Assembly (NCBI RefSeq): GCF_016026235.1
Contig: NZ_CP065613.1
Length of the DNA: 64,000 nt
Strand: one strand, 5' to 3'
Source of the DNA: Escherichia coli
Lineage (GTDB): Bacteria > Pseudomonadota > Gammaproteobacteria > Enterobacterales > Enterobacteriaceae
Of this stretch, positions 34,773-35,159 are shown one piece after another. The position numbers were made by a program, and so were the translations under genes. The notes under the pieces were generated by a model. That model ran no database searches and had not been told where the DNA came from. It saw only the letters and a program-made list of their open reading frames with translations. Within the stretch, counting starts at the first letter, position 1. Every line of letters begins with the position of its first letter.

Positions 34773-35159
34773 AAATCAGATATGACATATAAGTTGTCAG
34801 GTCAGGAACTAGATATTTTGTGTACTTGATTTGCAAACAGCTCCGGTGTTGGTGGCGTCAAAATCGCTGAAGCGTTCCACGAAGGCCGGGGCAGCCCACA
34901 TGGATGTGGGCTGAGGGCGCGTCTTACAAGGACGTTTCCTCGCGCCCGACCCGGTAGCCGAAGGGGATAAGCTGAAGGTACCGCGCAGCGGCGATTTTGT
35001 TCGCCAGAGCCCGGGGGTGCAGGGGGAGGAGGCGATTGTCCTCCCCCTGCGCGCTCCTTGCGCCAGTGGCAATATGTGGCTTAGCTCATGAAAGGAGCGC
35101 AACAAGATGATGAAGCTGAATAAGCGATTCATTGTCTCTGATAAACTGCGATTCCACTA

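What the first reader, a model, noticed from the sequence alone, without database searches (positions are those of the whole stretch)
34850..35110. Unexplained GC-rich, hairpin-dense element between yohP and dusC
About 250 bp of non-coding DNA contains several perfect hairpins (CAGCCCACAT…ATGTGGGCTG; GGGGGAGG…CCTCCCCC) and is unlike the REP/ERIC elements elsewhere in the window. No convincing ORF covers it. It might be a structured small RNA or a strain-specific insertion.
Basis: seen in the sequence. Interest (0 to 1): 0.4.

Follow-up and report, generated by a model that had tools for sequence, protein, structure and literature searches.

The report
Known E. coli RRS/TRIP1c repeat, inverted
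The GC-rich hairpin block between yohP and dusC is the already described TRIP1c repeat, also called the dusC "replication risk sequence", here in the natural orientation opposite to that of the laboratory strain K-12.

Summary
It folds far better than shuffled sequence.

It is not unexplained and not strain-specific. It is TRIP1c (Rudd 1999; Li 2024), the same element as RRS-dusC (Pham 2023/2024). In K-12, RRS elements fold on the lagging-strand template, stall polymerases and leave post-replication gaps. [quoted passage not shown]

I add four points:
- **Orientation.** The window copy is flipped in place relative to K-12, so its G-rich strand lies on the leading-strand template. 1999 of 5426 complete E. 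coli genomes carry this allele and 3311 carry the K-12 allele.
- **Conserved fold.** Across 88 copies from about 10 enterobacterial genera a 12-helix fold is kept by compensatory changes: 99% of cells are paired, and 624 cells changed on both sides against 191 in shuffles.
- **Folding strand.** G-U outnumbers A-C 65 to 11, so the G-rich strand is the one that folds.
- **G-quadruplex (G4).** The K-12 G4 tract is not conserved family-wide, but the hairpins and their loops (CATGGATG, C-GNA-G) are.

There is a weak resemblance to the TwoAYGGAY RNA motif (Rfam's CsrB clan), below threshold. No evidence of transcription was found.

Verdict: already known.

The parts
34811..35120 (+). Whole TRIP1c / RRS-dusC unit, with the G-rich 'sense' strand on the window + strand. 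It is inverted in place relative to K-12.
   Evidence: 90.5% identity over 304 bp (34811-35114) to K-12 TRIP1a at lysO-aqpZ. 88.2% identity over 272 bp (34849-35120) to the reverse complement of K-12 TRIP1c. nhmmer family profile hit 34837-35124, E = 1.7e-73, the only copy in the window.
34859..34999 (+). Domain 1. A long-range closing stem (34859-34866 with 34992-34999, continued by 34867-34877 with 34966-34977) encloses a multi-hairpin junction.
   Evidence: RNAalifold consensus on 88 copies. Helices 1-3 are 93-99% paired, and 10 of their 15 pairs have changes on both sides.
34892..34913 (+). Hairpin 1: CAGCCCACA-UGGA-UGUGGGCUG. The loop context CATGGATG is invariant.
   Evidence: CATGGATG is present in 88 of 88 copies, while the stem covaries (CCCAC/GTGGG, CGCGC/GCGCG, CCCGC/GCGGG, CCAGC/GCTGG, GGCGC/GCGCC).
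34916..34946 (+). Hairpin 2: GGGCGCG...ACAAGGACGT...CGCGCCC, with loop A-R/Y-GGA-Y. In K-12 it reads UUACAGGGAUGU.
   Evidence: The pair next to the loop covaries (A-U 54, G-C 33). Most copies have a CA[GATC]GGA[TC]G loop. Together with hairpin 1 it gives the weak TwoAYGGAY match of 26.2 bits.
34981..34991 (+). Mini-hairpin CCGC-GCA-GCGG, a C(GNA)G triloop.
   Evidence: C(GNA)G is present in 82 of 88 copies with N free (GAA 37, GCA 31, GTA 12, GGA 2). The stem covaries: CCGC/GCGG, CCAC/GTGG, TCGC/GCGA, TTGC/GCAA.
35013..35032 (+). G-tract GGGGGTGCAGGGGGAGGAGG. This is the window variant of the K-12 G4-forming sequence GGGGGTGCAGGGGGCGGCGG (two C-to-A changes between G runs).
   Evidence: Sequence. 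K-12 G4 sequence as given in PMC11194060. G4Hunter maximum 1.92, against 1.84 for K-12.
35019..35050 (+). Large hairpin GCA-GGGGGAGGA / loop GGCGATTG / TCCTCCCCC-TGC.
   Evidence: The two C-to-A changes in the 5' arm are matched by G-to-T changes in the 3' arm relative to K-12. Family-wide, 5 of the 7 pairs in helices 10-11 have changes on both sides.
35052..35099 (+). 3' domain. The stem CGCTCCT (35052-35058) with AGGAGCG (35093-35099) encloses a variable hairpin and is followed by AAC.
   Evidence: Helix 12 is 98.9% paired. It covaries as a block with ACGTTCAC...GTGAACG-GAAC in Citrobacter and Enterobacter.
34773..34820 (.). yohP-proximal spacer. It is orthologous to the K-12 spacer but strongly diverged, and it is not part of the flipped unit.
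   Evidence: Direct global alignment to K-12 L003 1067-1110.
35127..35166 (.). dusC-proximal spacer plus the last dusC codons. It is orthologous to K-12 but diverged (DusC ends IDIDKLR* here and IDIEKL* in K-12).

Best explanation
The element is the dusC copy of the TRIP1 / Replication Risk Sequence (RRS) family, a roughly 300-bp GC-rich chromosomal element.

Shown by others, in K-12: when the duplex is unwound at the replication fork, the exposed strand folds into a very stable structure. This blocks DNA polymerases, so lagging-strand synthesis skips it and leaves a transient post-replication gap of about 0.3-2 kb that binds SSB and RecA. The two E. coli copies (lysO and dusC) lie about 650 kb either side of dif. 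They are proposed to act as topological relief valves at the edges of the Ter domain, and at least one is conditionally essential.

Shown here: the window copy is a natural allele flipped in place. [quoted passage not shown]

Inferred: this copy forms gaps less often and of smaller size than the K-12 allele. The published in vitro figures for this orientation are about two thirds of replisome passages and about 325 nt, and in vivo no RecA/SSB peak was seen at inverted RRS.

Shown here: what the family conserves is a 12-helix fold of the G-rich strand with fixed loop sequences, not the G4 tract itself.

Inferred: the hairpin fold, including a C(GNA)G mini-hairpin, is at least as important as the quadruplex for the block. 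The fixed loops suggest an unknown factor that recognises them.
For: Identity:
- 90.5% identity to K-12 TRIP1a and 88.2% to K-12 TRIP1c.
- The K-12 coordinates 2229122-2229394, about 43 bp downstream of yohI (dusC), are given for TRIP1c in PMC10888264.
- PMC11194060 states that the RRS near lysO and dusC are the TRIP1 repeats of the 1999 screen.

Published function:
- ssGap-seq peaks of RecA and SSB at both loci are lost on deletion (PMC10287960).
- The G4 strand blocks Pol I, II and IV. Extra copies placed elsewhere also trigger gaps, and a double deletion survives only with a 200-kb amplification.
- Single-molecule assays give about 100% gap frequency and about 650 nt with the G4 strand on the lagging template, against about 66% and about 325 nt with the C strand there.

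Orientation in the window:
- The element aligns only as a reverse complement to K-12 TRIP1c, while yohP and dusC align directly.
- The window + strand has negative GC skew throughout (cumulative -0.51 over 64 kb), and gene order and strands at mdtQ-yohP-dusC match K-12. The + strand is therefore the leading-strand template, as on the K-12 left replichore.

Fold:
- 49 consensus pairs, 28 with compensatory changes.
- 99.0% of cells paired against 85.6% in shuffles; 624 against 191.5 +/- 11.5 cells changed on both sides (0 of 500 shuffles reach this); slid controls give 37-42% paired.
- G-U 65 against A-C 11 cells, found in 22 against 6 pairs.
- C(GNA)G triloop in 82 of 88 copies. From memory, this matches the very stable d(GCGNAGC) DNA mini-hairpins of Hirao 1992 and Yoshizawa 1997, which favours a DNA-level fold.
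Against: - All functional evidence comes from K-12 copies in the K-12 orientation. Nothing was measured for this allele.
- In vivo, inverted RRS gave no RecA/SSB peak. Yet 37% of complete E. coli genomes carry the inverted dusC allele, the lysO copy is also found inverted (strain E69; Li 2024), and K-12 TRIP1b and TRIP1d have the G-rich strand on the leading-strand template. Strict 'G4 on the lagging template' is therefore not a conserved property.
- Across about 100 copies in other genera, local GC skew shows no lagging-template bias (32 positive, 48 negative; a noisy measure).
- Klebsiella carries 13 places in one chromosome. That does not fit a simple pair-flanking-Ter picture.
- The exact K-12 G4 tract occurs in 13 of 88 copies and a canonical G3x4 motif in 2 of 88.
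- Invariant loop sequences are not needed for a mere polymerase block.
Confidence: 0.8

Rival explanations
1. The family is primarily a structured RNA. The G-rich strand is transcribed, for example as the 3' UTR of yohP here and of dusC in K-12. Its GGA-containing hairpin loops bind a dimeric RNA-binding protein such as CsrA, in the way CsrB/CsrC and TwoAYGGAY-type RNAs do. Gap formation would then be a side effect of a very stable fold.
For: - The 12-helix fold has compensatory changes and G-U greatly outnumbers A-C on the G-rich strand.
- Hairpin 1 is ACA-UGGA-UGU in 88 of 88 copies. Hairpin 2 is UUACAGGGAUGU in K-12 and CUACAUGGAUGUAG in Leclercia. From memory, the CsrA SELEX consensus is RUACARGGAUGU with GGA in a hairpin loop.
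- The best Rfam match is TwoAYGGAY at 34858-34997 on the + strand, and Rfam places TwoAYGGAY in the same clan (CL00106) as CsrB.
- There are six GGA motifs on the sense strand.
- In both alleles the sense strand lies downstream of a co-oriented gene.
Against: - The TwoAYGGAY score is 26.2 bits against a gathering score of 43 (E = 0.14). No family reaches its threshold, even in copies with two exact CAUGGAUG loops.
- No sigma-70-like promoter on the sense strand and no terminator were found.
- Where the element sits between tandem genes it is antisense 12 times and sense 6 times.
- In the CsrA CLIP-seq and transcriptomics tables of Potts 2017, dusC and ybjE carry no binding or regulation flags.
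- G-T wobbles and GNA triloops are also stable in DNA.
- No RNA-seq data were available here.
Confidence: 0.12
2. It is a non-autonomous mobile element (MITE-like, or an invertible segment). Copies spread to gene 3' ends, and an unknown recombinase that recognises its ends or hairpins can flip it in place. Any cellular role is secondary.
For: - It is multi-copy: median 3 and up to 8 places per E. coli genome, and 13 in a Klebsiella chromosome. It occurs at different loci in about 10 genera.
- The same unit is found in both orientations at both the dusC and the lysO loci, with the same outer flanks.
- Its ends form an imperfect inverted repeat, AGCTCTTTATC ... GATGAGAGACT.
- 38 of 58 copies lie between convergent genes.
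- The alx-sstT spacer holds TRIP1d in some strains and a BoxC-like repeat in K-12.
- Tandem or inverted double copies occur (L007, L031).
Against: - No target-site duplication and no clean empty site were found.
- No associated transposase or recombinase gene was found, and there are no matches in phage genomes. All 35 plasmid-collection records with a match are typed non-mobilizable, and several are chromosome-sized.
- Each E. coli locus is fixed across thousands of genomes (Li 2024).
- The terminal repeat matches at only about 8 of 11 positions.
- Copies within a genome differ by 10-25%, so any mobility is old or rare.
Confidence: 0.08

Closest known systems
TRIP1c repeat (Rudd 1999; Li et al. 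2024, PMC10888264), the same element as RRS-dusC, Replication Risk Sequence (Pham et al. 2023, PMC10287960; 2024, PMC11194060; Kusi-Appauh et al. 2026 preprint, PMC13308219)
   Same: It occupies the same locus (yohP/mdtQ-dusC spacer). The sequence is homologous at 88-90% identity, GC content is similar, and the hairpins and G-tract arrangement are the same.
   Different: - It is flipped in place relative to K-12, so the G-rich strand is on the leading-strand template.
- The G4 tract has two C-to-A changes with compensating changes in the opposite hairpin arm.
- It is closer in sequence to K-12 TRIP1a (90.5%) than to K-12 TRIP1c (88.2%).
TwoAYGGAY RNA motif (Rfam RF01731, clan CL00106 with CsrB)
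   Same: A closing stem encloses two adjacent hairpins whose loops carry A-Y-GGA-Y. Hairpin 1 has AUGGAU. The full-length alignment covers model positions 1-168.
   Different: - It scores 26.2 bits against a gathering score of 43, and other family members also fail.
- Hairpin 2 in the window has AAGGAC.
- TRIP1 has a further roughly 150 nt of conserved helices.
- There is no evidence that it is an RNA.
REP/BIME, ERIC/IRU and BoxC intergenic repeats of enterobacteria
   Same: These are also GC-rich (REP, BoxC), palindromic, multi-copy elements, mostly at gene 3' ends and between convergent genes. They can mediate rearrangements.
   Different: - It has no sequence similarity to their consensus motifs.
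- It is much longer and asymmetric, with a 12-helix branched fold rather than a simple palindrome, and has far fewer copies.
- Many Enterobacter, Leclercia and Silvania copies are directly followed by a CCCCCTCACCC (BoxC-like) sequence.
Neisseria gonorrhoeae pilE G4
   Same: It is a G-rich chromosomal sequence whose folded form on one strand leads to a single-strand gap or nick with a programmed biological outcome. The RRS authors cite it as the only other example.
   Different: - It is a short canonical G4 that depends on a small-RNA promoter and serves recombination-driven antigenic variation.
- TRIP1/RRS is a 300-bp multi-hairpin element in which the G4 is not conserved family-wide.

Membership tests
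TRIP1 / RRS | Sequence homology to K-12 TRIP1a/b/c over most of the unit | tested here: met
   90.5% identity over 304 bp to TRIP1a and 88.2% over 272 bp to TRIP1c. Family HMM E = 1.7e-73.
TRIP1 / RRS | Located at one of the fixed loci, here the yohG(mdtQ)/yohP-yohI(dusC) spacer a few tens of bp from the dusC stop codon | tested here: met
   The unit ends at about 35120 and the dusC stop is at 35160. yohP ends at 34772. K-12 TRIP1c lies 43-44 bp from yohI.
TRIP1 / RRS | GC-rich (62-65%) with extensive secondary-structure potential | tested here: met
   The core is 63.5% GC. Folding z-scores are -5.4 and -5.2.
TRIP1 / RRS | G4-forming tract on one strand only (K-12: GGGGGTGCAGGGGGCGGCGG) | tested here: met
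   The variant GGGGGTGCAGGGGGAGGAGG lies at 35013-35032 with the same G runs. G4Hunter is 1.92 on the sense strand and 1.24 on the antisense strand. Actual G4 formation was not tested.
TRIP1 / RRS | [quoted passage not shown] | tested here: not met
   The element is reverse-complemented relative to K-12 within the same flanks. The window + strand has negative GC skew. This is an orientation variant, not grounds for exclusion: 1999 of 5426 genomes share it.
TRIP1 / RRS | Triggers RecA/SSB-bound post-replication gaps; one copy is conditionally essential | not testable with these tools
   Needs ssGap-seq and genetics. Published for K-12 only.
TwoAYGGAY RNA (RF01731) | Covariance-model score at or above the Rfam gathering score (43 bits) | tested here: not met
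   26.2 bits, E = 0.14. No hit at the gathering score in six other family members, including Leclercia copies.
TwoAYGGAY RNA (RF01731) | Two hairpins with AYGGAY terminal loops inside a closing stem | tested here: inconclusive
   Hairpin 1 has AUGGAU in 88 of 88 copies. Hairpin 2 is AAGGAC in the window, AGGGAU in K-12 and AUGGAU in Leclercia and Silvania.
CsrA-binding RNAs (CsrB/CsrC clan CL00106) | Several GGA motifs presented in hairpin loops or single-stranded stretches | tested here: met
   There are six GGA motifs on the sense strand. Those at 34902 and 34930 are in the hairpin loops, and the one at 34965 is in a stretch unpaired in the consensus structure.
CsrA-binding RNAs (CsrB/CsrC clan CL00106) | Transcribed and bound by CsrA in vivo | tested here: inconclusive
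   No promoter was found. The Potts 2017 tables show no CsrA flags for dusC or ybjE, and no coordinate-level peak list was found.
MITE-like mobile element | Terminal inverted repeats and target-site duplication; empty sites in relatives | tested here: inconclusive
   The terminal repeat is imperfect (about 8 of 11 positions). No duplication was found. The alx-sstT 'empty' site in K-12 holds a different repeat.
REP/BIME, ERIC, BoxC | Family consensus sequence | tested here: not met
   No consensus match on either strand. These were simple pattern checks only.

The most novel reading that the evidence does not exclude
What evolution conserves in the TRIP1/RRS family is a specific branched fold of the G-rich strand whose invariant loops (ACA-UGGA-UGU, ACA-RGGA-YGU, C-GNA-G, AGGRAUAAG) are read by a trans-acting factor. 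The G-quadruplex and the lagging-template orientation are not what is conserved. The most concrete candidate is a CsrA-type dimer acting on an RNA copy. An ssDNA-hairpin-binding protein that controls gap formation, or that flips the element, is the alternative. On this reading the two natural orientations at dusC and lysO would be functional states rather than neutral variants.
Probability: 0.2. Interest if true: 0.7.

Novelty: already known. Interest (0 to 1): 0.33.

Why it matters
RRS elements are one of only two described cases of a chromosomal sequence that programmes single-strand gaps during replication, and in K-12 at least one copy is conditionally essential. The element itself is therefore known and needs no new explanation.

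Three points from this work bear on the current model, which rests on K-12 and on a G4 lying on the lagging-strand template:
- More than a third of sequenced E. coli carry the dusC copy in the orientation that gave no gap signal in vivo.
- The G4 tract is not conserved across genera.
- A 12-helix hairpin fold with invariant loops is conserved.

These points give direct, cheap tests: ssGap-seq in a strain carrying the window allele, and hairpin mutants against G-tract mutants. Such tests could show whether the quadruplex or the hairpin fold, possibly with a bound factor, is the working part.

Tried and rejected
- **Rfam.** A search at E <= 10 on 34400-35400 and gathering-score searches on six homologous loci and seven chance-match loci gave only a sub-threshold TwoAYGGAY hit, and no member reached threshold.
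- **Phage genomes.** No match.
- **Plasmid collection.** All 35 matching records are typed non-mobilizable. Several are chromosome-sized (0.7-5.4 Mb), and the smaller ones I opened carry chromosomal-type flanking genes. There is no link to a mobile plasmid.
- **Coding potential.** The 107-aa antisense ORF is not conserved. Neither it nor the 27-aa ORF starting at 35107 has a Pfam match, and the Shine-Dalgarno-like AAGGAG is one arm of a covarying stem.
- **Promoter and terminator scan.** Nothing on the sense strand.
- **CsrA CLIP-seq supplements (Potts 2017).** No flags for dusC or ybjE, and no peak coordinates were retrievable.
- **Empty-site comparison at alx-sstT.** K-12 has a BoxC-like repeat there, so the element boundaries and any target duplication could not be read off.
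- **Orientation against replication from local GC skew of 6-12 kb flanks.** This was too noisy to be decisive. For example, six K. pneumoniae ATCC 13883 copies all gave negative skew despite mixed strands.
- **Other copies in the window.** A BLAST and nhmmer search found none.
- **Not done.** I did not build a covariance model (the alignment exceeds 400 columns) and did not scan metagenomes or viral contigs, because the identity was already settled.

Full report
**1. The observation**

The region lies between yohP (34689..34772, +) and dusC (35160..36176, -). The 100%-identical RefSeq record NZ_CP065615.1 annotates both genes and nothing between them.

- CAGCCCACAT (34892-34901) with ATGTGGGCTG (34904-34913);
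- GGGGGAGGA (35022-35030) with TCCTCCCCC (35039-35047).

The core 34859-35099 is 63.5% GC. The flanks are 35-44% and the window as a whole is 50.3%. Either strand folds about 5 standard deviations better than dinucleotide shuffles: -147 kcal/mol for the + strand and -129.5 for the - strand.

A 107-aa ORF on the - strand covers the block. It carries a stop codon in the homologous frame of K-12 TRIP1a and TRIP1c and of a 97.8%-identical relative, and it has no Pfam match.

**2. What it is**

A megablast of 34780-35160 against 5426 complete E. coli genomes hit 5425 of them, with a median of 3 and a maximum of 8 places per genome. The block is therefore a repeat.

In K-12-type strains the best hit is the lysO-aqpZ spacer, at 90.5% identity over 304 bp.

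Full-text search led to Li et al. 2024 (PMC10888264). The family is TRIP1, first listed by Rudd in 1999. Its members are TRIP1a at aqpZ-ybjE(lysO), TRIP1b at putP-ycdN, TRIP1c at yohG-yohI(dusC), TRIP1d at alx-sstT and TRIP1e at copA-ybaP.

A second search found Pham et al. 2024 (PMC11194060) and Pham et al. 2023 (PMC10287960). The lysO and dusC copies are the 'Replication Risk Sequences', and the authors state that these are the TRIP1 repeats. The finding is thus the dusC RRS, also called TRIP1c.

**3. What is published about how it works**

All of this is from K-12:
- RecA and SSB ssGap-seq peaks sit on the lagging strand at both loci and disappear when the RRS is deleted.
- The G-rich strand carries a predicted G4 (GGGGGTGCAGGGGGCGGCGG) that blocks Pol I, II and IV in vitro and impairs M13 replication.
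- RRS placed elsewhere also trigger gaps.
- Both copies can be deleted only if a 200-kb segment is amplified or if other or inverted copies are present.
- Double deletion or double inversion changes global supercoiling.

A 2026 preprint adds single-molecule data. With the G4 strand as lagging template, gaps form at essentially every replisome passage and measure about 650 nt. With the C strand as lagging template, gaps form in about 66% of passages and measure about 325 nt.

**4. The window allele is flipped**

Aligning the window locus with K-12 gives three segments:
- yohP and its upstream region align directly at 100%;
- dusC aligns directly at 97.8%;
- 34849-35120 aligns only as a reverse complement, at 88.2%.

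Global alignments of the junction segments show that about 45 bp next to yohP and about 35 bp next to dusC are orthologous but strongly diverged. This includes the last dusC codons (IDIDKLR* here, IDIEKL* in K-12). The whole unit, about 34821-35126, is inverted between them.

The window + strand has negative GC skew throughout, and its gene order matches K-12. The + strand is therefore the leading-strand template, as on the K-12 left replichore. This puts the G-rich strand on the leading-strand template, opposite to the 'native' K-12 arrangement.

Queries that include both flanks count 1999 genomes with the window-like allele and 3311 with the K-12-like allele, out of 5426. This agrees with Li et al., who report both orientations for TRIP1c and TRIP1a.

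Two further genomes are informative:
- Escherichia sp. E1V33 has a window-like dusC allele together with a K-12-like lysO allele.
- E. coli E69 has the lysO copy inverted between unchanged flanks.

In K-12, TRIP1b has its G-rich strand on the leading-strand template. The same follows for TRIP1d from its co-orientation with alx, which lies on the K-12 + strand of the left replichore.

**5. The family and its conserved fold**

Homologues occur in Klebsiella (13 places in one chromosome), K. aerogenes and Citrobacter. No homologue was found in phage genomes.

A pattern scan of one genome per species returned about 104 true copies. They come from Escherichia, Citrobacter, Enterobacter, Klebsiella, Raoultella, Leclercia, Silvania, Atlantibacter, Pseudocitrobacter and Kluyvera.

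An alignment of 88 distinct copies (A4) gives an RNAalifold consensus of 49 pairs in 12 helices, 28 of them with compensatory changes. The controls on that structure are as follows:

| Measure | Observed | Control |
|---|---|---|
| Cells forming a standard pair | 99.0% | 85.6% in shuffles; 37-42% with partners slid by 1-3 columns |
| Cells changed on both sides | 624 | 191.5 +/- 11.5 in shuffles (0 of 500 reach the observed value) |
| Covariation score | 0.409 | at most 0.087 with slid partners |

G-U cells outnumber A-C cells 65 to 11, spread over 22 against 6 pairs. The G-rich strand is therefore the one under selection to fold.

The loops are fixed while the stems vary:
- CATGGATG in 88 of 88 copies;
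- CA-N-GGA-Y-G in hairpin 2;
- a C(GNA)G triloop in 82 of 88 copies, with N free.

From memory, the triloop matches the extraordinarily stable d(GCGNAGC) DNA mini-hairpins, which fits a DNA-level fold.

The G4 tract behaves differently:
- the exact K-12 tract occurs in 13 of 88 copies;
- a canonical G3x4 motif occurs in 2 of 88;
- G4Hunter reaches 1.5 in 43 of 88, mainly the Escherichia and Klebsiella types, while the Citrobacter-type copies shown score about 1.08.

In the window copy the two C-to-A changes inside the G-rich arm are matched by G-to-T changes in the C-rich arm. That keeps both the hairpin and the G runs.

**6. RNA or DNA?**

The best Rfam match is TwoAYGGAY at 26.2 bits, below its gathering score of 43. 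Other family members also fail to reach threshold.

Rfam files TwoAYGGAY in clan CL00106 with CsrB. The two hairpins resemble the CsrA SELEX consensus (from memory), so a CsrA-binding RNA is a possible reading. Four things count against it:
- no promoter or terminator was found;
- between tandem genes the element is antisense 12 times and sense 6 times;
- the CsrA tables of Potts 2017 show nothing for dusC or ybjE;
- all experimental data are at the DNA level.

I rate this rival at about 0.12.

**7. Mobility**

Several features recall small mobile repeats:
- 38 of 58 copies lie between convergent genes;
- the unit ends in an imperfect inverted repeat;
- it is flipped in place at two loci;
- it alternates with a BoxC-like repeat at alx-sstT.

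No target duplication, clean empty site or associated enzyme was found. I rate this rival at about 0.08.

**8. Verdict**

The element is already known.

Three results appear to go beyond the papers I could read:
- the link between the natural inverted allele and the orientation-dependent RRS model;
- the family-wide covariation showing a conserved hairpin fold with invariant loops;
- the lack of conservation of the G4 tract.

All three lead to direct experiments.

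Noticed in passing
window 33029..34555 (-): mdtQ is an intact ORF here and is annotated as a 478-aa outer-membrane protein in the identical RefSeq record. 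In K-12 MG1655 mdtQ is annotated as a pseudogene.
   Followed up: no
window 35160..35180 (-): The DusC C-terminus differs between the two spacer alleles (…IDIDKLR* here, …IDIEKL* in K-12). The divergence that accompanies the flipped repeat therefore reaches into the coding sequence.
   Followed up: partly
window 35091..35190 (+): A Shine-Dalgarno-like AAAGGAG is followed 8 nt later by ATG and a 27-aa ORF that runs out of the element into the dusC 3' end. In K-12 the equivalent ATG is followed by only 2 codons before a stop. The AAGGAG is one arm of a covarying stem, so this is probably not a gene.
   Followed up: partly
L011 3046-3445 (K-12 alx-sstT spacer) versus L005: Where some strains carry TRIP1d, K-12 carries a BoxC-like GC-rich repeat (CCCTCTCCCTT…GGGAGAGGG…GGGGTGAGGG). 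The same spacer is thus occupied by different repeat families in different strains.
   Followed up: no
3' flanks of the copies in, for example, L024-L026, L042, L044, L053-L056, L076, L077, L098-L100, L105, L112, L113: Many Enterobacter, Leclercia and Silvania copies are followed about 25-30 bp after the last stem by CCCCCTCACCC(TA), a BoxC-like sequence. This suggests a composite repeat in those genera.
   Followed up: no
L041 7250-7549 (-) and L082 1328-1627 (+): One Enterobacter copy breaks off inside the large hairpin and continues with unrelated sequence containing an ORF start, which may be an IS insertion. Another copy carries an internal insertion of about 80 bp that is itself hairpin-rich.
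   Followed up: no
L007 2491-2790 and 2928-3227; L031 60-94 (-) and 466-500 (+): A K. pneumoniae spacer has two tandem copies 437 bp apart. A short Escherichia-like MAG contig has two inverted copies about 400 bp apart.
   Followed up: no
L121, L066, L021, L031: Contigs filed under Bacillus sp. (583 bp, coverage 0.7), a Sporobacter termitidis MAG, a Desulfacinum MAG and a 'Proteobacteria bacterium' MAG carry Escherichia- or Klebsiella-type copies at 81-90% identity. This is most likely contamination or mis-binning.
   Followed up: no
L112 2141-2206 (+): A RyhB sRNA gene (84.4 bits) lies about 6 kb from a Leclercia copy. This is incidental.
   Followed up: no
NZ_CP194962.1, a 243-kb E. coli record (H30 / H95): A short fragment of the unit (60-85 bp, 85-95% identity) sits on a plasmid-sized record. 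8-10 of about 17,500 places in E. coli genomes are on plasmids.
   Followed up: no
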